Positions 10,718 to 60,500 of a stretch of DNA of 64,000 bases are shown here, piece after piece. The translations under genes were made by a program, and so were the position numbers. Within the stretch, counting starts at the first letter, position 1. Every line of letters starts with the position of its first letter. The notes beneath the pieces are model-generated. The model had not been told where the DNA came from, made no database searches, and saw only the letters and a list, made by a program, of their open reading frames with translations. The stretch is from Mytilus edulis (taxonomy: Eukaryota). The stretch is taken from NCBI RefSeq assembly GCF_963676685.1, contig NC_092353.1, positions 20,243,307 to 20,307,306 on the forward strand, in the 5' to 3' direction.

Positions 10718-13060
10718 AAACTAGAGGCTCTAAAGAGCCTGTGTCGCTCACCTTGGTCTATGTGCATATTAAACAAAGGACACAAATGGATTCATGACAA
10801 AATTGTATTTTGGTGATGGTGATGTGTTTGAAGTTCTTACTTTACTGAACATTCTTGCTTCTTACAATTATATCTATAATGAACTTTGCCCATTAGTAAC
10901 AGAGAAAAATATTTGGTAAAAATTTACATAAATTTACCAAATTAATGAAAATTGTTAAAAATTGACTATAAAGGGCAATAACTCCTTAAGGGGTCAATTG
11001 ACCATTTAGGTCATGTGGACTTATTTGTAGATCTTACTTTGATGAACATTATCGCTGTTTACAGTTTATTGCTATCTATAATAGTATTCAAGATAATAAC
11101 CAAAAACAGCAAAATTTCTTTAAAAATTACCAATTGGAGGGCAGCAACCCAACAACCGGATGTCCAATTCATTTGAATATTTCAGGGCAGATATATATTG
11201 ACTTGATTAACAATTTAACTCCTTGTCAGACTTCCTCTAAATGATTTGGGTTTCAGAGTTATAAGCAAAAAACTACATTTTACCCCTGTTCTATTTTTAG
11301 CCGTGGTGGCCATCTTGGTTGGATGGCCAGGTCATCGGACACATTTTTCAAACAAGGTACCTCAAAGATGATTGTGGCCAAGTTTGAATTAATTTGGCCC
11401 AGTAGTTTCAGAGGAGAAGATTTTTGTAAAAGATAACTAAGATTTACGAAAAATGGTTAAAAATTGACTATAAAGGGCAATAACTCCTAAAGGGGTCAAC
11501 TGACCATTTCGGTCATGTTGACTTATTTGTAAATCTTACTTTGATGAACATTATTGCTGTTTACAGTTTATCTCTATCTATAATAATATTCAAGATAATA
11601 ACCAAAAACAGCAAAATTTCCTCAAAATTACCAATTCAGGGGCAGCAACCCAACAACAGGTTGACCGATTCATCTGAAAATTTCAGGGCAGATAGATCTT
11701 GACCTGATAAACATTTTTACTTCATATCAGATTTCCTCTAAATGTTTTGGTTTTTGAGTTATCAGCCAAAAACTGCATTTTACCCCTATGTTCTATTTTT
11801 AGCCGTGGCGGCCATCTTGGTTGATTGATCGGGTCACGCCACACATTTTTTAAACTAGATACCCCAAAGATGATTGTGGCCAACTTTGGATTAATTTGGC
11901 CCATTAGTTTCAGAGGAGAAGATTTTTGTAAAAGATTACTTAGATTTACGAAAAATGGTTAAAAATTGACTATAAAGGGCAATAACTCCTAAAGGGGTCA
12001 ACTGACCATTTCCGTCATGTAGACTTATTTGTTAATCTTACTTTGCTTAACATTATTGCTGTTTACAGTTTATCTCTATCTATAATAATGTTCAAGATAA
12101 TAACCAAGAACGGCAAAATTTCCTTAAAATTACCAATTCAGGGGCAGCAACCCAACATCAGGTTGTCCGATTCATCTGAAAATTTCAGGGCAGATAGATC
12201 TTGACCCTATAAACAATTTTACCCCCATGTCAGATTTGCTCTAAATGCTTTAGTTTTTGAGTTATAAGCCAAAAACTGCATTTTACCCCTATGTTCTATT
12301 TTTAGCCGTGGTGGCCATCTTGGTTAGTTGGCCGGGTCACCGGACACATTTTTTAAACTAGATACCCCAATGATGATTGTGGCCAAGTTTGGTTTAATTT
12401 GGCCCAGAAGTTTCAGAGGAGAAGATTTTTCTAAAAGATAACTAAGATTTACGAAAAATGGTTAAAAATTGACTATAAAGGGCAATAACTCCTAAAGGGG
12501 TCAACTGACCATTTGGGTCAGGTTGACTTATTTGTAAATCTTACTTTGCTGAACATTATTGCTGTTTACAGTTTATCTCTATCTATAATAATATTCAAGA
12601 TAATAACCAAAAACAGGAAAATTTCCTTAAAATTACCAATTCAGGGGCAGCAACCCAACAACGGGTTGTCTGATTCATCTGAAAATTTCAGGGCAGATAG
12701 ATCTTGACCTAATGAACAATTTTATCCCGTGTCAGATTTGCTCTAAATGCTTTGGTTTTTGAGTTATAAGCCAAAAACTGCATTTTACCCCTATGTTCTA
12801 TTTTTAGCCATGGCGGCCATCTTGGTTGGTTGACCGGGTCACCAGACACATTTTTTAAACTAGATACCCCAATGATGATTGTGGCTAAGTTTGGTTAAAT
12901 TTGGCCCAGTAGTTTCAGAGGAGAAGATTTTTGTAAAAGTTAACGACGCCAGACGACGACGGACGACAGACGACGGACGACAGACGACGGACGCCGGACG
13001 CCGGACGCCAAGTGCTGGGAAAAGCTCACTTGGCCCTTTGGGCCAGGTGAGCTAAAAAGA
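10718..13060. repeat. Satellite-carrying non-autonomous element (family C). ~5 tandem ~480-bp units starting ACTAGAGGCTCTAAAGAGCCTGTGTCGCTCACCTTGGTC and ending in a (GACGRC)n microsatellite plus perfect hairpin AGCTCACTTGGCCC-TTT-GGGCCAGGTGAGCT-AAAAA.
   Basis: Direct sequence comparison of units. The same 5' head and 3' hairpin terminus recur at 16366-17220, 27146-28444 and 51178-53850. Confidence 0.8.
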
Positions 13061-16130: not shown

Positions 16131-16365
16131 GGCATGAGGGGATGTCAGTCTGGGCTTGAAGCAAAAAGGTTTACAATACCATAATTTCATAATTTCAACA
16201 AGCAAGGGTAAAACACATTGTAACTATTTGCTTTAATATTTATTCCTTTTTTATGAGTTTTAAAGTCTCTCAAATGGATAGGTTGTTAATTAGCAGGTTT
16301 AAATTATAAATCATCAACCTCTATCCAAACCCTTCATCATATTACTGGTTTGAAAACTAGAGGCT

Positions 16366-17220
16366 CTAAAGAACATGTGTAGCTAACCTTGGTCTATGTG
16401 AATATTAAACAAAGGACACAGATGGATTAATGACAAAATTGTGTTTTGATGATGGTGATGCGTTTGTAGATCTTCCTTTACTAAACTTTCTTGCTGCTTA
16501 CAATTATCTCTATCTATAATGAACTTAGCCCAGTAGTTTCAATGAAAACATGTCTGTGAAAATTTACAAATTTTATGAAAATCGTTAAAAATTGACTATA
16601 AAGGGCAATAACTCCTTAGGGGGTCAATTGACCATTTTGGTCAAGTTGACTTATTTTTAGGTCTTACTTTGCTGAACATTATTGCTGTTGTCAGTTTATC
16701 TCTATCTATAATAATAACAAAAAATGGCAAAATTTCCTTATGATGATTGTGGCCAAGTTTGGTTTAATTTGGCCCAGTAGTTTCAGAGGAGAAGATTTTT
16801 TTAAAAGAATACGAAGATTTACGAAAAATGGTTTAAAATTGACTATCAAGGGCAATAACTCCTAAAGGGGTCAACTGACCATTTTGGTCATGTTCACTTA
16901 TTTGTAAATCTTACTTTGCTGAACATTATTGCTGTTTACAATTTATCTTTATCTATAATAATATTCAAGATAATAAACAGAAACAGCAAAATTTCCTTAA
17001 TATTACCAATTTAGTGGCAGCAACCCAACAACAGATTCTCCGATTCATCTGAAAATTTCAGGGCAGATAGATTGATTGTGGTCAAGCTTGGTTAAATTTG
17101 ACCCAGTAGTTTCAGAGGAGAAGATTTTTGTAAAAGTTAACAGACGACGCAGGATGACGACGACGGACGCAAAGTGATGAGAAAAGCTCACTTGGCCCTT
17201 TGGGCCAGGTGAGCTAAAAA
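16366..17220. repeat. Family C satellite-carrying element, copy 2 (~1.7 units, same (GACGRC)n plus hairpin terminus). Lies in intron of the SNAP-25-like gene.
   Basis: Same termini as 10718-13060. Confidence 0.8.
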
Positions 17221-26974: not shown

Positions 26975-29258
26975 AAATGCTCTGCAGGGCGCAGCTAGAT
27001 ACGACCGCAGAGGTTGAACTCTGAACAGTTGGAGCAAGTATGGACACAATATTCAAGCTGGATACAGCTCTGAATTTGGATTGTGATTAAATATTTGACA
27101 CAGCATAGGTTTCTGACACAGAATGAATGTGGTTTAATGAACTTAAACTAGAGGCTCTAAAGAGCCTGTGTCGCTCACCTTGGTCTATGTGAATATTAAA
27201 CAATGTACACAGATGGATTCATGACAAAATTGTGTTTTGGTGATGGTGATGTGTTTGTAGAGCCTACTTTACTAAACATTCTTGCTGCTTACAATTATCT
27301 CTATCTATAACAGTACTTTCTGTGGAAAATGTTATTGAAAATCTTCAAATTTTAAGAAAATTGTTAAAAATTGACTATGAAGGGCAATAACTCCTTAGGG
27401 GGTCAATTGACTATTTTGGTCATACTGACTTATTTTTAGTTCCTACTTTGCTGTACATTATTGCTGTTTACAGTTTATCTCTATCTATAATAATATTCAA
27501 GATAATAACCAAAAACAGCAAAATTTCCTTAAAATTACCATTTCAGGGGCAGTAACCCAACAACCGATTATCCGATTCATCAGAAAATTCCAGGGCAGAT
27601 AGATCGTGACCTGATCAACAATTTTCCTTCCTGTCAGATTTGCTCTAAATGCTTTGGCTTTTGAGTTATAAGCCAAAAACTTCATTTTACCCCTATGTTC
27701 TATTTTTAGCCATGACAGCCATCTTGGTTGGTTGGGCGGGTCACCGGACACATTTTTTAAATTGGATACCCCAATGATGATTATGGCTAAGTTTGGTTAA
27801 ATTTGGCCCAGTAGTTTCAGAGGAGAAGATTTTTCTAAAAGATTACTAAGATTTACGAAAAATGGTTAAAAATTTACTATACAGGGCAATAACTCCTAAA
27901 GTAGTCAACTGACCATTTTGGTCATGTTGACTTATTTGTAGATCTTACTTTGCTGAACATTATTGCTGTTTACAGTTTATCTCTATCTATAATAATATTC
28001 AAGATAATAACCAAAAACAGCAAAATTTCCTTAAAATTACCATTTCAGGGGCAGCAACCCAACAACGAAATGTCCGATTCATCCGAAAATTTCAGGGCAG
28101 ATAGATCTTGACCTGATGAACAATAATACCCCTGTCAGATTTGCTCTAAATGCTTTGGTTTTTGAGTTATAAGCCAAAAACTGCATTTTACCCCTATGTT
28201 CTATTTTTAGCCATGGCGGCCATTTTGGTTGGTTTGCCGGGTCACTGGACACATTTTTTAAACTAGATACCCCAATGATGATTGTGGCCAAGTTTGGTTA
28301 AATTTGGCCCAGTAGTTTCAGAGGAGAAGATTTTTGTAAAAGTTAACGCAGGACGACGACGGACGACGAACGACGACGACGGACGCCGGACGCCAAGGGA
28401 TGAGAAAAGCTCACTTGGCCTTTCTGCCAGGTGAGCTAAAAAATTTAATTTACTTATGATGTTCCAAGATCCAAAATCTACATGGCCATGGATTGATTCA
28501 GCATATCAAAGAATCACAAGAATTCATTTTTTTATGAAATCAAACAATGTTTAATTTTGGACCCTTTTGACCTCAATGGCGAAATCTAAGGATTTTCTTA
28601 TGCCAAGCATAGATTACCTTAGCCAATTTTGGCACAACTTTTTGGAATTTTGAATCCTCAATCCTCTTCAACTATGTATTTGTTTGGCTTTATATCTTTT
28701 TTAATATGAGCGTCATTGATGAGTCTTATGCAAACAAAAGGTGTGTCTGGTGTACTTAATTATAATCCTGGTACCTTTAATTTGATAACTATTGACCTAA
28801 ATGTGGACCAATTTGATAACAGGGCCCAAAAATCAGAAAATCAAAATACATGGTTAGATTTAGCATATCAAAAAACCTGTTACATTCAATTTTTGTTGAA
28901 ATCAAACAAAGTTAAATTTTGGACCCCAATTTTGACCAACTTGAAAACTAGGCCCATAATCAAAAATCTAAATACATGTCTAGATTAAATAGCATATCAA
29001 AGAACCCCAAGAATTCAATTTTTGTGAAAATCAAACTAAGTTTAATTTTGGACCCTTTGGACCTTAATGTAGACCAATTTCAATCCCAACCTCCCTTTTG
29101 TGGTTTCAAACCTTCTTTTTAAATTTCATAGAGATTCATTTTCTTAAACTAAAGTTATTGTCTGGAAACTTAGTGTCTTTGGATGATGCTGACGACTACA
29201 ACATGATACCAATATATGACCGCAAAATATTTTTGCAGTCGTATAAAAACCTAGGACC
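26975..29258. mobile_element. Family A composite element enclosing a family C satellite module (27146-28444) and ~100-bp repeat module; tail TTTTTGCAGTCGTATAAAAACC
   Basis: Head at 26975-27140 is ~90% identical to 620-790. Tail at 29225-29258 has the same hairpin motif. Confidence 0.6.
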
Positions 29259-48071: not shown

Positions 48072-48497
48072 CTGTAATATAAATATACCAGGTGTTGTTA
48101 ATTATGTATTTTGACATTACCCCTTGTTTGGCCCCAAATTATACAATTAGCACTTTGCACTTTGGAAAAATAAAAGTAAGTTGCATTTTAAACATTTATG
48201 TTTCCATCTCTAAGTAAATTGATTCAAGGATTTTCATAAATGTGAATAATGGGACTTGATCGCAATAATAAGAAATCCCATTTTCTGATATTGGATACTT
48301 ATGTATATCTTTATGAAGATTAAGTTGAAATCGCAATAACCAGTCTTACATTTTGGTTAGATCTTCAAAAATGACAATTATAAATGCATGCAATAATTTC
48401 TGAACTTCCAGTATTTATATTCACATGTATCTTACCTTCTGTGAATAGATGTTATGAAAATTGGATGAATGTTACAAACAGAATCACATTTACATAC

Positions 48498-48596
48498 CTA
48501 GCAGAACTGGCAAAGTAGATTCCATTTCCCAGCATTCCTGCATCTGTTCTGGTTCCACCAAAATCATCAACTACAACTTTAGGCAGCATTAAACCT
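48498..48596 (-). CDS. PARP4: PARP4 exon 9, PARP catalytic core (RGLMLPKVVVDDFGGTRTDAGMLGNGIYFASSA)
   Basis: Near-identical to PARP4 RGLLLPKVVEDRGVQRTDVGNLGSGIYFSDS. Acceptor ttgcag|AGGTTTAATG. Donor GCTAG|gtatgtaaat. Confidence 0.85.
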
Positions 48597-48999
48597 CTGC
48601 AACAAATATTTACATTTGAAGCGGATATATGTTGTAAAGCTCTTAGCATAATTTTAATATTATGTAATGAGCTGTTATAAATACTGTATAATAATGATAA
48701 TAAAAGTAAAAGTTTCTTTCTGTATTTCAAAGTACAGGTTTAATGAGAAATTGGTTTCTCCTTTTTATATTTGTTAACATTTTGTTATCTTATCTAACAT
48801 TATGTCTTTTTCTGTAACTACTGTGGAATAATTATCAATTGTGTGAAATATCAATTTTTATGGATTTCGTTGGTTTAGATAAACTACAATTTCAAATGTT
48901 CAATGAAAGTTAAATTCCTATTATGCAGACTTTACCAAAGCCACAAAATTAACAATTAGCAAAAATACAATTGGTCCTCAATCCATAAAAATTTGTTGA

Positions 49000-49690
49000 G
49001 TAATTGAGTATTGAGGTTGAGTAATATTGAGGTTGAGTAATTAAGTATTGAGGTTGAGTAATTGAGTATTGAGGTTGAGTAATTGAGTATTGAGGCTGAG
49101 TAATTGAGTATTGAGGCTGAGTAATTGAGTATTGAGGTTGAGTAATTGAGTATTGAGTTTGAGTAATATTGAGGTTGAGTAATTGAGTATTGAGGTTGAG
49201 TAATTAAGTATTGAGGCTGAGTAATTGAGTATTGAGGTTGAGTAATATTGAGGTTGAGTAATTGAGTATTGAGGTTGAGTAATTGAGTATTGAGGTTGAG
49301 TAATATTGAGGTTGAGTAATTGAGTATTGAGGTTGAGTAATTGAGTATTGAGGCTGAGTAATTGAGTATTGAAGTGGAGTAATTGAGTATTGAAGTGGAG
49401 TAATTGAGTATTGAAGTTGAGTAATTGAGTATTGAGGTTGAGTAATTGAGTATTGAGGTTGAGTAATTGAGTATTGAGGTTGAGTAATTGAGTATTGAGG
49501 TTGAGTAATATTGAGGTTGAGTAATTGAGTATTGAGGCTGAGTAATTGAGTATTGAGGTTGAGTAATTGAGTATTGAGGTTGAGTAATTGAGTATTGAGG
49601 CTGAGTAATTGAGTATTGAGGTTGAGTAATTGAGTATTGAGGCTGAGTAATTGAGTATTGAGGCTGAGTAATTGAGTATTGAGGCATATT
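49000..49690. repeat. 21-bp minisatellite (GAGTAATTGAGTATTGAGGTT)n, ~33 copies with 16-bp variants, in PARP4 intron
   Basis: Direct inspection. The ORFs 48956..49687 and 49204..49710 are artefacts of this array. Confidence 0.9.
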
Positions 49691-50774: not shown

Positions 50775-51177
50775 CTGAAATATGACAAATTAATTTAGAG
50801 TCAAGGCTAGCTATATGTTCAGAAGTTGAAATTTACATAGTCCTACCTTAGCAGTGAAAAATTTATCAGATTTACACCTACTTTTTTATATGACCGAATG
50901 AAAAAAATAAAGATATTTACTAGTCAGTTATCTGAAACATCTCAATTGCTTGATATCCCAATGCTGCTTTGACATATGTTAAATTATAGAGTGAAAAGTG
51001 TAAATCTTAAAACAAGTAATATGCAATAATATGGAATGTGCTTTGTGTGGCTATTTAACAACTATCCACAAGAGACCAAAGGACGAGAATGTAAACAACT
51101 AAAGTAAAATAAAATTAGAAAGGGTTACGCGAAACCAGTGTCTTGCCTACTTTTGCTGTTAGTCACAGGCACAACAA

Positions 51178-53850
51178 ACTAGAGGCTCTAAAGAGTCTGT
51201 GTCGCTCACCTTGGTCTATGTGAATATTAAACAAAGGAAGCAGATGGATTCATGACAAAATTGTGTTTTGGTGATTGTGATGTGTTTGTACATCTTACTT
51301 TACTGAACATTCTTGCTGCTTACAATTATCTCTATCTATAATCAACTTGGCCCAGTAGTTTCAGTGGAAAATGTTAGTTAAAATTTACAATTTTTATGAA
51401 AATTGTTAAAAATTGACTATAAAGGACAATAACTCCTTAGGGGTCAATTGACCATTTCCGTCATGTTGACTTATTTGTAAATCTTACTTTGCTTAACATT
51501 ATTGATGTTTACAGTTTATCTCTATCTATAATAATATTCAAGATAATAACCAAAAACAGCAAAATTTCCTTAAAATTACAAATTCAGGGGCAGCAACCCA
51601 ACAACGGGTGGTCAGATTCATCTGAAAATTTCAGGGCAGATGGATGTTGACCTGATAAACAATTTTACTTATGTCAGATTTGCTCTAAAGGCTGCGGTTT
51701 CAGAGTTATAAGCCAAAATCTACATTTCACTCCTATGTTCTATTTTTAGCCATGGTGGCCATCTTGGTTGGTTGGCCGGGTCACCGGACACCAATTTTTT
51801 AAACTAGATACCCCAATGATGATTGTGGCCAAGTTTGGTTTAATTTGGCCCAGTAGTTTCAGAGGAGAAGATTTTTGTAAAAGATAACTAAGATTTATGA
51901 AAAAATGGTTAAAAATTGACTATAAAGGGCAATAACTCCTAAAGGGATCAACAGACCTATTTGTAGATCTTACTTTGCTGAACATTTTTGCTGTTTACAG
52001 TTTATCTCTATCTATAATAATATTCAAGATAATAACCAAAAACAGCAAAATTTCCTTAAAATTACCAATTCAGGAGCAGCAACCTATCAATGGGTTGTCC
52101 AATTCATCTCAAAATTTCAGGGCAGATAGATCTTGACCTGATAAACAATTTTACCTCGATGTCAGATTTGCTCTAAATGCTTTGGTTTTTGAGTGATAAG
52201 CCAAAAACTGCATTTTACCCCTATGTTCTATTTCTAGCCATGGCGTCCATCTTGGTTGGTTGGCCGGGTCACAGGACACAATTTTTTAACTAGATACCCC
52301 AATGATGATTGGGCATAGGACATTTGAGCGAAAAAGAAAAAAGCACATAGGGTCATTTGAGCGCCGACTTCATAGGACATTTGAGCGCCGGGATATTAAC
52401 CTTACCTGAGTTTTCAGACAGGACATTTGAGCGAAATTTTCCCTGATAATTTTACACGAATTAAGATTTTTTTTTAAAAGTAAGAAAAAAAAGTAAGATT
52501 TAGTTATAAATATTTTTTATTTTATTTCACACCCGAGTAATTCGACCGGTTCTGGCTGGTTTATGTAAGTGAAATCCTAAGTTGATCTCTATTTACCAAT
52601 CAATTCTACTATAATTCATTGGCTATGCAAATTTTCTTTGTTCTAAAATTCTTATATATATATCTATTAAGTGAAATGTCCCTTGGCACTTGAAATCTTA
52701 ATACTAATAATACATGTACGTGTTAAAATGGATATTATTTTGACCGAGACTAATAAGGGAAAAAGAAGCCTTGTTTGTGACAGTTTCCGATATAGAGTGG
52801 ACAAAACACTAAAAGGAGAAGAAATATCCTGGAGATGTACAGTAAGTACCTTTTTTTACAAATTTAATGTTAATGTAAACTACTTGTTCGTCTGTTACGC
52901 TTCAACTTCCATAACTTCTTTTAATTTTGATTTATATCTATATCATTATATGTCTATCTTATACCTCCTTTAGATTAATTTTTTAACACATTTGAATATA
53001 AGCTACCACATATAGGGTTAGGTATCAAGGCTCCATGTTGAAGGTCGTACTGTAACCTATATAACATTGTTAGGTTGATTTTCTAGGCACTTTACAATAT
53101 TCATACAATACACTGTAAAAATTGTGCTTAAATGTCCTAAAATTTAGGCGCTCAAATGTCCTATACTTTGGCGCTCAAACGTCCTTTTTTTTTCGCTCAA
53201 ATGTCCTGTCAATGCGCTCAAATGTCCATTGCCGTGATGATTGTGGCCAAGTTTGGTTTAATTTGGCCCAGTAGTTTCAGAGGAGAAGATTTTTGTAAAA
53301 GATTACTAAGATTTACGAAAAATGGTTAAAAATTGACTATAAAGGGCAATAACTACTAAAGGGGTCAACAGACCATTTTGGTCCTGTTGACTTATTTGTA
53401 GATCTTACTTTACTGAACATTTTTGCTGTTACAGGTTATCTCTATCTATGATAATATTCAAGATAATAACCAAAAACAGCAAAATTTCCTTAAAATTACC
53501 AATTCAGGGGCAGCAACCTATCAACAGGTTGTCCGATTCATCTCAAAAATATAGGGCAGATAGATCTTGACCTGATTAACAATTTTACCCCATCTCAGAT
53601 TTACTCTAAATGCTTTGGTTTTTGAGTTATAAGCCAAAAACTGCATTTTACCCCTATGTTCTATTTTTAGCCATGGCGGCCATCTTGGTTGGTTGGCCGG
53701 GTCACCGGACACAATTTTTAAATTAGATACCCTAATAATGATTTTGGCCATGTTTAGTTAAATTTGGCCCAGCAGTTTCAGAGGAAAAGATTTTTGTAAA
53801 AGTTAACGACGACGGACGCCAAGTGATGAGAAAAGCTCACTTGGCCCTTC
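51178..53850. repeat. Family C satellite-carrying element, copy 4 (interrupted by MULE-like insertion 52313-53234). Terminal hairpin truncated.
   Basis: Same head (ACTAGAGGCTCTAAAGAGTCTGTGTCGCTCACC) and 3' GACGRC tract; hairpin partially degraded (gctcacttggcccttcgggcag). Confidence 0.75.
52313..53234. mobile_element. Mutator-like (MULE-type) non-autonomous TIR element. 9-bp TSD TGATGATTG, ~19-bp TIRs (GGCATAGGACATTTGAGCG / CGCTCAAATGTCCATTGCC), subterminal direct repeats of CATAGGACATTTGAGCGCCG. Carries a FLYWCH-type zinc-finger exon fragment (52740-52849, …ILTETNKGKRSLVCDSFRYRVDKTLKGEEISWRCT|gtaagt).
   Basis: Inserted into one unit of the 480-bp satellite. The target site tgatgattg appears intact on both flanks. 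Internal ORF shows the FLYWCH pattern (F/L..T.KGK..LV.DG/S.F.Y…K…..ISWRC) followed by a canonical gtaagt donor. Confidence 0.65.
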
Positions 53851-54326
53851 GGGCAGTTATTAAAATTTTAAAAACTTTAACCACAGCGTGAATATTTATG
53901 ATCACCGACAAAAATGATCTAAACCAAAACCATATTGTAAGCTATAGAAGAAAATGTCATAAAACAATAATGTGTCCATTGTACACTGATGCCCCACTCA
54001 CACTATCATTTTCTAAGTTCAGTGGACCTCGAAATTGGGGTAAAAACTCTAATTTGGCATTACAATTAGAAAAATCATATCATAGGGAACATGTGTACTA
54101 AGTTTCAAGTTGATAGGAATTCAACTTCATCAAAAACTACCTTGACCAAAAACTTTAACCTGAAGTTAACCTAAAGTAGGATAGACGGATGGACTGATGG
54201 ACAGACAGACCCACAGACCAAAAAACATAATGCCCCTAGGTGGGTCCGAAAAAAAATTGAAACAATTAAAAATAGCTACCTACCAATCCTTTTTTTATAG
54301 AAATTACTTTAAAGACAGTGTTTCTT

Positions 54327-54600
54327 TTATATTTATATTAACCAGTCAAATGAGACCATTACCTGACATATATCTTGTTTTAGAGAAAGCCAGGCTCTAA
54401 GTTATGTGTCTGATGGTTTTATATTTATATTAACCAGTCAAATGAGACCATTACCTGACATATATCTTGTTTTAGAGAAAGCCAGGCTCTAAGTTATGTG
54501 TCTGATGGTTTTATATTTATATTAACCAGTCACATGAGACCATTACCTGACATATATCTTGTTTTTGAGAAAGCCAGGCTCTAAGTTCTGTGTCTGATGG
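54327..54600. repeat. 93-bp ×3 tandem repeat duplicating the 3' end plus donor (TGTCAG|gtaatgg) of PARP4 exon 6
   Basis: Copies at 54541-54600 (real exon end), 54449-54513 and 54356-54420. Downstream copies carry an in-frame TAA. Confidence 0.8.
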
Positions 54601-54714
54601 TGTATGTTTTCTCCTATGAGGCAAACAACTGTAGAATTCATCGACTAGACCGGTTCTCTGTTGGTTGTCACTGCAATTTTTACATTTTAATAAAACAGCT
54701 TCTGCTTTCTCTAT
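54547..54714 (-). CDS. PARP4: PARP4 exon 6, helical/regulatory region (IEKAEAVLLKCKNCSDNQQRTGLVDEFYSCLPHRRKHTPSDTELRAWLSQKQDICQ)
   Basis: Matches PARP4 VSKAEGILLLVKAALKNGETAEQLQKMMTEFYRLIPHKGTMPKEVNLGLLAKKADLCQ. Acceptor ttttag|ATAGAG. Donor TGTCAG|gtaatgg. 168 nt in phase. Confidence 0.7.
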
Positions 54715-58155: not shown

Positions 58156-59232
58156 CTACAATATTATAAAGTAACAGGGGACATGTAAACAAATTAATTT
58201 ATCAAACTGGACATACATATTACAACACTTATCTCCCCTTGAACCAAATTGTCTGCAAAATAAATTATAATGTAAAATTTAGTGCCCTTTTTATCAGATA
58301 CTGCTACATTCCTCTAGATATATAACCATACAATTCTTCCTATAATATCTGGAAACTTTAAACCTATGACAATGGAGATAAAACTTAATGGAGTCATTGA
58401 AGTATAAAATCTAGTCATTTATTTTCATGGAATCTGCTTTATTCTATAAGATGCGATTGTAGATAAAGTATTAAATGTATCTTCTTGATGTATTCTTTTA
58501 TAAAGGTACACGTTTTATTGTCACAAAAAGTGATAAAAAATATGCCAACCTAAGTTGAAAAGTAATAAGTAAAGGGAAATACCTAAAAAAGATTCTTTTT
58601 AAAAAAAATTGATCCAATTTAAAAATAAATAAATTGGGAATGTGTACATGGGACACAGATGATGCCCCCACTTGTATATCATATAAAGGGACATAACTGA
58701 AGAATGGCAAAAGTGATGTTTCCCAAATTTGTTATTGACATGAGTTTTGTAGTAATACATTTTGTGTATAAGTGTCATTACATTTGGTGGAGGCAAACTT
58801 AAGCTAGAGAACAGAAACGAAAAATTCAGCAATTTTTTGCCATTTGTAAAGAGGCATAACTCTAGAACTGTAAAAGTGACACCACCAAAATTCAGACTTG
58901 ATCTGTATTTTGTGGTAATAAGCATTGTGTATACGTTTTATACTATTTGGTTGAGGAAAACTAAAGTTAGAGAATGGAAATAAAAATTCAGCAATTATTC
59001 CATTTGTAAAGGGGCATAACTTTAGAACTGTTAAAGTGACACCACAAAAATTCAAACTTGATCTGTATTTGATAGTAACAAGCTTTGCGTATAAGTTTCA
59101 TAATGTTTGGTTGAGGCAAACTAAAGTTAGAGAATGGAAACCAACTTTGGGACCTACGGACAGACTGACATACAGACAGACAAGGGTAAAACTTAATGCC
59201 CCCTCCACTATGACAGGGGCATAAATTCTTAC

Positions 59233-59431
59233 ATAGTATTTTGCCACTGCTGAATTCTTGTGACTTTGTTTTTCCAACAAGGATGTAATTATCTGTATTG
59301 AGTAGTCTCCCCTGGTCTACACAGTCATGGATATAATCAAGTGACACCACTGGTAATCCATACTGTGTGGCCATCTTACATTTGTAACTGATATCTGCCT
59401 TTTCTGGGTCATTACATACAACATGTGTACT
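59233..59431 (-). CDS. PARP4: PARP4 exon 2: C-terminal half of BRCT (STHVVCNDPEKADISYKCKMATQYGLPVVSLDYIHDCVDQGRLLNTDNYILVGKTKSQEFSSGKIL)
   Basis: BRCT consensus (TH.V…G.P.V…W…C…LL.E..Y). Matches PARP4 CTHIILDNADVLSQYQLNSIQKNHVHIANPDFIWKSIREKRLLDVKNYDP. Acceptor tttatttacag|AGTACA. Donor ACTAT|gtaaga, phase 1. Confidence 0.75.
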
Positions 59432-60210
59432 CTGTAAATAAACCAGAAACATATAATAAACTAGACAACAAAGATGATAATGAGCCTTTGGGTAACCATT
59501 AGGGAGGTTTTGAAATTTGTGTGAAATGTTCAGGCTCTTTTGGTGTTTTTCCATACAAACAAGGTAAAACATTTTGCCCCATAACACCTATTTATCTTTT
59601 AACATAATTAGACTTAATTGCTCATAACAAGGTCAATCATTTGACAAAATTTAAGCAGATTCTGGATTTTCTTTCTTTTGATTTGAGACCTAAATAATAC
59701 CAATGCAAATATAATGTAAAAGTCAAAGTCAGCCTTTTTCCGTCATATTTCATAAGTCAAATATCACGAAAAAAGAGCTACATGACCTATCAATATGTTT
59801 TAGCTTATTTTGATCCTGAACTAATACTCTTCCAGCTTAAAGTATCAATTTTAAATTCTTGATTTATTTAATTTTACCTTATTAATTAGATTACCTAAGT
59901 ATATCCTTAACACATTATTCTTACTCGGAGTAGACCAGTCCTTGCTCTTGCTTTTTAAAGCGGTTGCATCACAGAAAAGCAGCAAATACCCAAAAATACC
60001 CTTCTGGCTTTCAAACCCACAATGGGGAATGTGTCAAAGAGACAACAGCCCTACCATAGAACAGACAACAGCAGAAGGTTACCATTAGGTCTTCAATGCA
60101 GCGAGAAATTCTCTTTCCTGGAGGCGTCCATCAGCAAACAAATATTTATACTAGTACAGTGGTAATGGATGTCAGTCTTCATTCAAAATTTATTATTGCA
60201 TTGTACATAC

Positions 60211-60349: not shown

Positions 60350-60500
60350 TTATAACTGAAAACAGAAATATATCATTACTATTTTATTTTCTATCTGAAA
60401 ACAGAAATATATCATTACTATTTTATTTTCTATCTGAAAACAGAAATATATCATTACTATTTTATTTTCTATCTGAAAACAGAAATATATCATTACTATA
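60350..60500. repeat. 39-bp ×4 tandem repeat immediately 5' of the PARP4 start codon. Each unit, read on the minus strand, ends in a polypyrimidine tract plus AG (…ATATTTCTGTTTTCAG).
   Basis: Unit CTGAAAACAGAAATATATCATTACTATTTTATTTTCTAT (plus strand). The last copy abuts TTATAAG-ATG of exon 1. Followed by a (TA)n microsatellite at 60540-60580. Confidence 0.8.

What the first reader, a model, noticed from the sequence alone, without database searches (positions are those of the whole stretch)
52304..53243. MULE-like element carrying a FLYWCH zinc-finger exon, inserted into a satellite monomer
A 922-bp element with 19-bp TIRs, multiple subterminal repeats of CATAGGACATTTGAGCGCCG and a 9-bp TSD (TGATGATTG) interrupts one unit of the 480-bp satellite. 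The 9-bp TSD together with subterminal repeats points to the Mutator superfamily. Inside is an ORF segment with the FLYWCH/WRKY-GCM1-type zinc-finger signature (…KGKRSLVCDSFRYRVDKTLKGEEISWRCT) ending exactly at a canonical gtaagt donor. This could be a relic exon of the family's transposase DNA-binding domain or a captured host exon.
Basis: partly seen in the sequence, partly recalled or inferred. Interest (0 to 1): 0.55.

Follow-up and report, generated by a model that had tools for sequence, protein, structure and literature searches.

The report
Deleted mussel Mutator transposon copy
This is an ordinary, very young, internally deleted copy of a Mutator-type (Phantom-like) DNA transposon of Mytilus mussels that kept only the first exon of its own transposase gene. 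It is real and well formed, but it is a known kind of element.

Summary
A 924-bp element (window 52311-53234) sits in one ~490-bp repeat unit. It has 20-bp imperfect terminal inverted repeats and nine copies of the 13-mer GGACATTTGAGCG, which occurs nowhere else in the window. Eight uninterrupted sister units show the empty site.

The exon peptide passes Pfam FLYWCH (25.8 bits, cut-off 23.6) but covers only the N-terminal half of the domain.

Longer family members were found: ~2.6-2.85-kb elements in Mytilus edulis, M. galloprovincialis and M. trossulus. They carry the same exon 1, an intron of about 555 bp, and an exon 2. The spliced product is a 461-aa FLYWCH + MULE transposase, identical to RefSeq "uncharacterized protein" XP_071131712.1. 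It has an invariant D186/D252/E375 triad and a CxxH motif.

The window copy matches a full-length copy with no mismatch over 820 + 104 bp and lacks the internal 1830 bp. So the exon is a relic of the family's own transposase gene, not a captured host exon.

One correction: the target-site duplication is 8 bp (TGATGATT), not 9. Four further genomic copies also show 8 bp. This does not indicate hAT, because the encoded protein is MULE and animal MULEs are reported to make 8-9-bp duplications.

Verdict: a new member of a known kind, of low interest.

The parts
52303..52310 (+). Left copy of the 8-bp target-site duplication, TGATGATT
   Evidence: Read directly from the sequence. The empty site AATGATGATTGTGGCC is seen in 8 sister repeat units. 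The 8-bp length is supported by four other genomic copies.
52311..53234 (+). Non-autonomous, internally deleted element of the Mutator (Phantom-like) superfamily, 924 bp
   Evidence: No mismatch to full-length copy L002 over the 5' 820 bp and the 3' 104 bp; the internal 1830 bp is absent.
52311..52330 (+). 5' terminal inverted repeat, GGGCATAGGACATTTGAGCG
   Evidence: 17 of 20 bases complementary to the 3' end. The same terminus is present at nine different insertion sites, this one included.
52318..52433 (+). Four direct copies of the 13-mer GGACATTTGAGCG (52318, 52351, 52375, 52421). These are inferred to be transposase-binding sites.
   Evidence: The binding role is an inference by analogy with other elements that have subterminal repeats.
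52434..52727 (+). Region upstream of the start codon, presumed to hold the promoter and 5' untranslated region of the transposase gene
   Evidence: Colinear with and identical to the full-length copies. Promoter function was not tested.
52728..52841 (+). Transposase exon 1: 38 codons, MDIILTETNKGKRSLVCDSFRYRVDKTLKGEEISWRCT, the N-terminal half of the FLYWCH zinc finger
   Evidence: Pfam FLYWCH at 25.8 bits against a cut-off of 23.6, profile positions 2-33 of 62. Identical to residues 1-38 of RefSeq XP_071131712.1.
52842..53130 (+). First 289 bp of the transposase intron, starting with the GTAAGT splice donor
   Evidence: In L002 the intron runs from the donor after WRCT to the acceptor ...TTTTTCAG|GCAAAAGG. 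The conceptual splice equals the RefSeq protein.
53126..53137 (.). Internal deletion junction (breakpoint 53130|53131), with 1 bp of exact microhomology and 5 bp of imperfect microhomology (GCTTA / GCTCA)
   Evidence: Three-way comparison of the window with the 5' and 3' sides of L002.
53149..53227 (-). Four intact inverted copies of the 13-mer (53149, 53172, 53194, 53215). The full-length element has six; one was lost and one was halved by the deletion.
53215..53234 (+). 3' terminal inverted repeat, CGCTCAAATGTCCATTGCCG
53235..53242 (+). Right copy of the 8-bp target-site duplication, TGATGATT
51176..53854 (+). Host interspersed repeat with an internal array of ~490-bp units, into which the element inserted
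   Evidence: Self-BLAST finds copies at 10718-13043, 16354-17205 and 27145-28424 with the same start and end. Unit spacing is 486-503 bp.

Best explanation
The feature is a non-autonomous, internally deleted copy of a cut-and-paste DNA transposon of the Mutator (MULE) superfamily. Its architecture is the one called Phantom, and the family lives in Mytilus mussels.

The autonomous element:
- It is about 2.6-2.85 kb long.
- It has 20-bp imperfect terminal inverted repeats.
- It carries four (left) and six (right, inverted) subterminal copies of GGACATTTGAGCG.
- It holds one two-exon gene for a 461-aa transposase. The N-terminus is a FLYWCH zinc finger, presumably the part that recognises the ends. 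The catalytic core is a MULE DDE domain (D186, D252, E375, plus C273xxH276).

How the window copy arose:
- It lost the internal 1830 bp: the rest of the intron, all of exon 2 and two of the right-hand 13-mers.
- The junction shows 1 bp of exact microhomology (5 bp imperfect), which is the usual outcome of interrupted repair of the gap left by an excision.
- It kept both ends, the upstream region, exon 1 and 289 bp of intron.
- It inserted into a ~490-bp repeat unit and made an 8-bp duplication (TGATGATT).

What it can and cannot do:
- It encodes no working protein. Exon 1 holds only the first of the four zinc ligands.
- It should still be movable in trans by transposase from full-length copies.

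Shown here: the anatomy, the deletion, the 8-bp duplications, the domain content, the conservation of catalytic residues, and the multi-copy, multi-species distribution.

Inferred: the 13-mers are transposase-binding sites; the deletion arose by abortive gap repair; the family is still active.
For: - Motif enrichment and end structure.
- Empty-site sister units.
- FLYWCH hit on the exon.
- The window's exact 100-aa ORF lies next to a MULE-domain ORF on three independent assemblies.
- The window element equals the 5' 820 bp plus the 3' 104 bp of those elements with no mismatch.
- Exon 2 is intact in L001-L003.
- The splice product is identical to RefSeq XP_071131712.1, XP_071134799.1 and XP_071159972.1 of M. 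edulis. Variants that differ by 1-2 residues occur in M. trossulus and M. galloprovincialis.
- Pfam gives MULE at 2.2e-12 and FLYWCH at 1.2e-10, and nothing else.
- D186, D252, E375, C273 and H276 are invariant in 17 relatives that are 35-55% identical to the Mytilus protein.
- 8-bp duplications are seen at five sites.
- A second, independent deletion derivative (L013) has a 2-bp junction microhomology.
- Literature: FLYWCH + MULE defines Phantom transposases (PMC3169594; PMC6446971). Muta1 and Muta5 make 8-9-bp duplications, and Muta5 has a 15-bp subterminal tandem repeat (PMC5225508).
Against: - MULEs typically have long (>100 bp) inverted repeats and 9-11-bp duplications. Here the strict inverted repeat is only 20 bp and imperfect (first base G versus C), and the duplication is 8 bp, which on its own would suggest hAT.
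- No transposition assay, excision footprint or polymorphic empty site at this exact locus was available.
- The metagenome and Logan contigs (L001, L002) show no duplication, probably because their flanks are chimeric assemblies of a multi-copy repeat.
- One genomic copy (L014) has a damaged right tip and shows no duplication.
- Placement inside the Phantom clade rests on domain architecture and on similarity to aphid and crustacean FLYWCH-MULE proteins, not on a phylogeny.
Confidence: 0.93

Rival explanations
1. It is a hAT-superfamily element, as an 8-bp target-site duplication and short inverted repeats would suggest.
For: The duplication is 8 bp in five of five informative copies. The strict inverted repeat is short, at 20 bp.
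Against: - The full-length copies encode a protein whose only catalytic-domain hit is Pfam MULE PF10551 (47.7 bits against a cut-off of 27.6). No hAT dimerisation or BED domain is found at E <= 0.1.
- A CxxH motif follows the second catalytic D. From my own knowledge of Hua-Van and Capy 2008, this is a MULE signature.
- Animal MULEs with 8-bp or 8-9-bp duplications are documented (PMC5225508; PMC6446971).
Confidence: 0.02
2. It is a Pack-MULE-like element that captured an exon from a host FLYWCH gene.
For: FLYWCH domains also occur in host transcription factors. Many FLYWCH-only proteins were among the representative hits. MULEs are known to capture gene fragments (PMC6446971).
Against: - The exon, its upstream region and 289 bp of intron are colinear with, and identical to, exon 1 and intron 1 of the family's own transposase gene in full-length copies.
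- The only difference from those copies is a single internal deletion.
Confidence: 0.02
3. The FLYWCH-MULE genes are domesticated host genes, as their RefSeq labels 'uncharacterized protein' might suggest, and the window feature is a pseudogene fragment rather than a mobile element.
For: RefSeq models them as genes. The ORFs are intact and nearly identical across three Mytilus species.
Against: - There are many copies on different chromosomes.
- Each is bounded by the same inverted repeats and by a different 8-bp duplication.
- Deletion derivatives exist.
- One copy is inserted inside another repeat, with intact sister sites nearby.
Confidence: 0.02

Closest known systems
Phantom subclass of Mutator-like elements (Marquez and Pritham 2010, as described in PMC3169594 and PMC6446971), including the Aedes aegypti Muta elements
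   Same: - The transposase has an N-terminal FLYWCH finger and a MULE DDE domain, and is about 460-500 aa long.
- The hosts are animals.
- The duplication (8 bp here) falls within the 8-10 bp reported for Phantom, and the 20-bp inverted repeat falls within the reported 18-613 bp range.
[quoted passage not shown]
- A short tandem duplication directly follows the ORF. Aphid Phantom elements are noted to have a mini-satellite after the ORF (PMC6446971, Table 1).
   Different: - The host phylum, Mollusca, is not listed for the Phantom group in PMC6446971. There the mollusc MULE groups are listed without a zinc finger.
- The duplication was 8 bp in every informative copy sampled here.
- The subterminal 13-mers are interspersed rather than strictly tandem on the left side.
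- Phylogenetic placement was not tested.
Tm1-A of root-knot nematodes (PMC3169594)
   Same: - It has a FLYWCH (residues 5-66) plus MULE (197-294) transposase of 496 aa, with almost the same domain positions as here (6-64 and 183-277).
- It has non-autonomous, MITE-like derivatives.
   Different: - Tm1 has Foldback-like long inverted repeats and 9-bp duplications.
- Its FLYWCH domain lacks the last histidine, whereas the Mytilus protein keeps C37, C42, H62 and H64.
Ac/Ds-type and Mu-type internal deletion derivatives
   Same: A non-autonomous copy arises from an autonomous one by an internal deletion with short junction microhomology, and keeps the ends and subterminal binding motifs.
   Different: This is an analogy of process only. 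Ac/Ds belongs to hAT, and maize Mu elements have ~200-bp inverted repeats.

Membership tests
Mutator / MULE superfamily | The transposase carries the MULE DDE domain (Pfam PF10551) | tested here: met
   P0070 scores 47.7 bits, E = 2.2e-12, against a cut-off of 27.6, at residues 183-277. The gene calls on L001-L003 also carry PF10551. The window copy itself has lost this part.
Mutator / MULE superfamily | A conserved D..D..E triad with a C/DxxH motif after the second D | tested here: met
   D186, D252, E375, C273 and H276 are invariant in 17 relatives. Naming these as the catalytic residues is an inference from the Hua-Van and Capy motif, recalled from my own knowledge.
Mutator / MULE superfamily | Target-site duplication of 8-11 bp | tested here: met
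   8 bp in the window and in L012, L013, L015 and L017. This is the lower bound of the range quoted in PMC6446971 and PMC5225508.
Mutator / MULE superfamily | Long terminal inverted repeats (typically >100 bp) | tested here: not met
   The strict inverted repeat is 20 bp with 17 of 20 matches. The inverted subterminal 13-mers extend the symmetric region to ~125-140 bp. Long inverted repeats are typical rather than obligatory: Phantom is reported at 18-613 bp, and MULEs without inverted repeats exist (PMC6446971).
Phantom subclass of MULEs | [quoted passage not shown] | tested here: met
   FLYWCH scores 41.8 bits at residues 6-64, with MULE at residues 183-277. C37, C42, H62 and H64 are conserved. 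The definition is taken from PMC3169594.
Phantom subclass of MULEs | The transposase groups phylogenetically with canonical Phantom/Muta sequences | not tested
The only support is indirect: 35-41% identity over nearly the full length to aphid FLYWCH-MULE proteins, and ~50% to crustacean ones.
hAT superfamily | hAT transposase (hAT C-terminal dimerisation domain, usually with a BED finger) | tested here: not met
   The Pfam scan of the full-length protein at E <= 0.1 returns only MULE and FLYWCH.
Pack-MULE (gene-fragment capture) | The internal sequence derives from a host gene unrelated to the element's own transposase gene | tested here: not met
   The internal sequence is identical to the autonomous element's own upstream region, exon 1 and intron.
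Active (currently transposing) element | Observed excision or new insertion, or transposition in an assay | not testable with these tools
   Support is indirect only: no mismatch over 924 bp, perfect duplications, and at least 8 RefSeq loci with intact 461-aa ORFs.

The most novel reading that the evidence does not exclude
The family may be a currently active, compact (~2.6-2.85 kb, single-gene) Phantom-type MULE in Mytilus. If so, it would extend this FLYWCH-MULE clade to molluscs and offer a natural autonomous/non-autonomous pair (the 461-aa transposase and this 924-bp derivative) for a bivalve transposition or transgenesis system. The evidence does not exclude this: the window copy shows no divergence, the ORFs are intact and nearly identical in three species, and independent deletion derivatives exist.
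Probability: 0.45. Interest if true: 0.3.

Novelty: new member of a known kind. Interest (0 to 1): 0.18.

Why it matters
The biological weight is modest.

- It documents a young, probably still mobile FLYWCH-MULE (Phantom-like) transposon family in Mytilus. Its ends, 8-bp duplication, autonomous copy and deletion derivatives are now defined.
- It shows that several RefSeq "uncharacterized protein" genes in M. edulis, M. trossulus and M. galloprovincialis are transposase genes of this family. At least one gene model (P0002, CDS of GCA_900618805.1) is a chimera of an element copy with flanking sequence.
- For the genome scan, it gives a caution. A duplication length read from a single copy can be off by one when the first base of the element matches the next base of the target. 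Duplication length alone does not separate hAT from animal MULEs.

Tried and rejected
Padded to 43 aa, it found nothing because no three 5-mers were shared. The exhaustive HMMER search was needed instead.
2. I looked for the second half of the FLYWCH finger (C...HxH) in all six frames of the element. It is absent.
3. I tried to read duplications from the metagenome and Logan contigs L001 and L002. Their flanks do not match each other, most likely because they are chimeric assemblies of a multi-copy repeat. I did not use them for duplication length, only for the left boundary base.
4. Exact-product look-ups of P0070 and P0180 were not on record. Other cluster members supplied the chromosomal loci.
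5. L014 (damaged right tip) and L016 (5'-truncated) gave no duplication.
6. The PDB sequence search gave only a weak hit to the human FLYWCH1 finger (2rpr, E = 0.005) and no solved relative of the catalytic domain.
7. The Marquez and Pritham 2010 Phantom paper is not held, so its definitions are quoted second-hand.
8. I rejected the hAT, captured-exon and domesticated-gene readings (see the rival explanations).
9. I did not run structure prediction, fold search or Rfam. They would not change the verdict.

Full report

Yes, with corrections.

- The 13-mer GGACATTTGAGCG (up to 2 mismatches) occurs nine times in the 64-kb window, and all nine lie in the flagged interval. Four are on the + strand at 52318-52433 and five on the - strand at 53125-53227. 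Shuffled sequence gives 0.4 on average and never nine. The repeat finder shows the same picture.
- The surrounding DNA is a tandem array of ~486-503-bp units.
- Eight other units in the window carry the uninterrupted site CCCAATGATGATTGTGGCCAAG, three of them perfectly. The interval is therefore an insertion into one unit.
- The peptide MDIILTETNKGKRSLVCDSFRYRVDKTLKGEEISWRCT (52728-52841) is followed directly by GTAAGT. It passes Pfam's FLYWCH threshold at 25.8 bits against 23.6, E = 1.2e-5. It covers only profile positions 2-33 of 62.
- No second half of the finger is present in any frame of the element.

**2. What is it?**

An exhaustive HMMER search with the 38-aa exon found two key hits:
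- The window's own 100-aa read-through ORF, P0001.
- P0002, a 363-aa Mytilus galloprovincialis protein that is 97% identical over the exon.

It also found more distant proteins such as P0028, which carries FLYWCH and a Pfam MULE domain.

I then looked up where the exact 100-aa ORF is encoded. This returned three independent assemblies (L001-L003) in which the ORF is followed by a 359-464-aa MULE-domain ORF.

BLAST shows how the window element relates to these ~2.7-2.84-kb elements. A base-by-base comparison gives no mismatch over 820 + 104 = 924 bp, with 1830 bp missing in between. The breakpoint is 53130|53131. It has one exact shared base and an imperfect 5-bp microhomology, GCTTA versus GCTCA. 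The innermost right-hand "13-mer" at 53125-53137 is the hybrid formed by this junction.

**3. The autonomous element**

- In L002 the donor after WRCT and the acceptor TTTTTCAG|GCAAAAGG define a phase-0 intron of about 555 bp.
- Exon 2 is open in L001-L003.
- The conceptual splice gives a 461-aa protein. It is identical to P0180, which is RefSeq XP_071131712.1, XP_071134799.1 and XP_071159972.1 of M. edulis. It differs at only 1-2 residues from entries of M. edulis, M. trossulus and M. galloprovincialis.
- Pfam finds MULE (residues 183-277, E = 2.2e-12) and FLYWCH (residues 6-64, E = 1.2e-10), and nothing else.
- In an alignment with 16 relatives that are 35-55% identical, D186, D252, E375, C273 and H276 are invariant. 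The finger ligands C42 and H62 are invariant, and C37 and H64 are nearly so.
- The relatives come from molluscs, crustaceans, aphids and a tick.
- The window copy retains only C37 of the four zinc ligands, so it cannot encode a working finger.
- The full-length element has four left and six right 13-mers.

**4. Target-site duplication**

At eight further insertion sites with different flanks, the base before GGCATAGG is always G. The element therefore starts GGGCATAGG at 52311, and the window duplication is TGATGATT, 8 bp.

Chromosomal copies confirm 8 bp:

| Locus | Species and record | Duplication |
|---|---|---|
| L012 | M. galloprovincialis UYJE01004551.1 | CACTGATT |
| L013 | M. galloprovincialis OZ263146.1 | CTAATTTT |
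| L015 | M. trossulus CM071708.1 | CACTAGAC |
| L017 | M. trossulus CM071710.1 | CGGATGTG (eroded 5' tip) |

In none does a ninth base match. L013 is an independent deletion derivative with a 2-bp junction microhomology.

**5. Mechanism**

Shown:
- The structure of the element, its single internal deletion and its duplications.
- The transposase domains and the conserved catalytic residues.
- The multi-copy distribution over several chromosomes and three species.

Inferred from established knowledge of DDE cut-and-paste elements:
- The FLYWCH finger probably recognises the terminal and subterminal 13-mers.
- The DDE core cuts and rejoins the DNA.
- Staggered cuts 8 bp apart give the duplication.
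- The deletion arose during interrupted repair of an excision gap, which is consistent with the short microhomologies.
- The 924-bp copy keeps both ends and most of the 13-mers, so it should be mobilised in trans.
- Identity to a full-length copy from another sample and perfect duplications point to very recent activity.

**6. Comparison with known families**

- According to PMC3169594, Phantom transposases are characterised by an N-terminal FLYWCH finger plus a MULE domain. The domain positions in Tm1-A (5-66 and 197-294) nearly match those here.
- PMC6446971 lists Phantom with 8-10-bp duplications, 18-613-bp inverted repeats and hosts in several invertebrate phyla, but not Mollusca. It lists two mollusc MULE groups without a zinc finger.
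- PMC5225508 shows that Muta1 makes 8- or 9-bp duplications. It also shows that Muta5 has an 8-bp terminal motif plus a 15-bp subterminal repeat, with many derivatives.
- MULEs are reported as common in bivalves, with 39 curated consensus sequences (PMC10294476).

So this is a MULE by protein criteria, Phantom-like by architecture, and untested by phylogeny. It is not hAT, because no hAT domain is found. It is not a Pack-MULE, because the internal DNA is the element's own.

**7. Verdict**

This is a real, cleanly delimited and ordinary feature: a new member of a known kind. The duplication length and the term "satellite" need correcting. Interest is low. The only mildly notable points are the apparent youth of the family and the labelling of its copies as host genes in RefSeq.

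Noticed in passing
window 51176-53854; also 10718-13043, 16354-17205, 27145-28424: The '480-bp satellite' is the internal tandem array (~490-bp units, 1.5-4.7 copies) of an interspersed repeat present four times in the window. All copies share the same 5' start (ACTAGAGGCTCTAAAGAG...). The 3' end carries a (GACGACG)n microsatellite and a hairpin (GCCAAGTGATGAGAAAAGCTCACTTGGC). It resembles the tandem-repeat-bearing MITE-like or Helitron-like elements described in bivalves. That resemblance is recalled from my own knowledge and was not tested.
   Followed up: partly
L002 2421-2588 (full-length element coordinates 2381-2548): A tandem duplication of ~77-90 bp (91% identity) lies directly after the transposase stop codon in the full-length copies. 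[quoted passage not shown]
   Followed up: no
L001, L002, L003-L011, L015, L016 (intron region, full-length coordinates ~670-1030): The full-length copies fall into intron-length variants: a 119-bp segment, a 41-bp segment or an extra ~77 bp, and a 176-bp intron deletion in the M. trossulus copies. The family therefore has several sub-lineages, although the coding sequence is nearly identical.
   Followed up: partly
L012 4001-12367 (M. galloprovincialis GCA_900618805.1, UYJE01004551.1): Gene model P0002 (363 aa, 'Hypothetical predicted protein') fuses parts of an element copy (FLYWCH exon plus partial MULE) with unrelated downstream sequence. It looks like an annotation chimera caused by the transposon.
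   Followed up: partly
window 58988-59587 (-) and 48452-48730 (-): One minus-strand ORF has sub-threshold BRCT hits (BRCT_2 at 24.5 bits against a cut-off of 27.3). Another contains the motif GNGIYFASSA, which is reminiscent of a PARP catalytic motif but gave no Pfam hit. The element may lie antisense in an intron of a BRCT/PARP-like host gene.
   Followed up: partly
window 48995-49684: A 21-bp minisatellite (GTTGAGTAATTGAGTATTGAG, 34 copies, 89% matches) causes a strong local GC skew (+0.33).
   Followed up: no
window 54325-54601 and 60356-60499: Two very young tandem arrays: 92 bp x 3.0 copies (98% matches) and 39 bp x 3.7 copies (100% matches).
   Followed up: no
L017 2055-2090 and 4301-4330 (M. 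trossulus CM071710.1): This is an older copy (97% identity in its 5' part). Its 5' tip GGGC is eroded to AC, yet it is still flanked by the 8-bp duplication CGGATGTG. The target itself lies in a short repeated motif (GGATGTGGTAGGGT).
   Followed up: no
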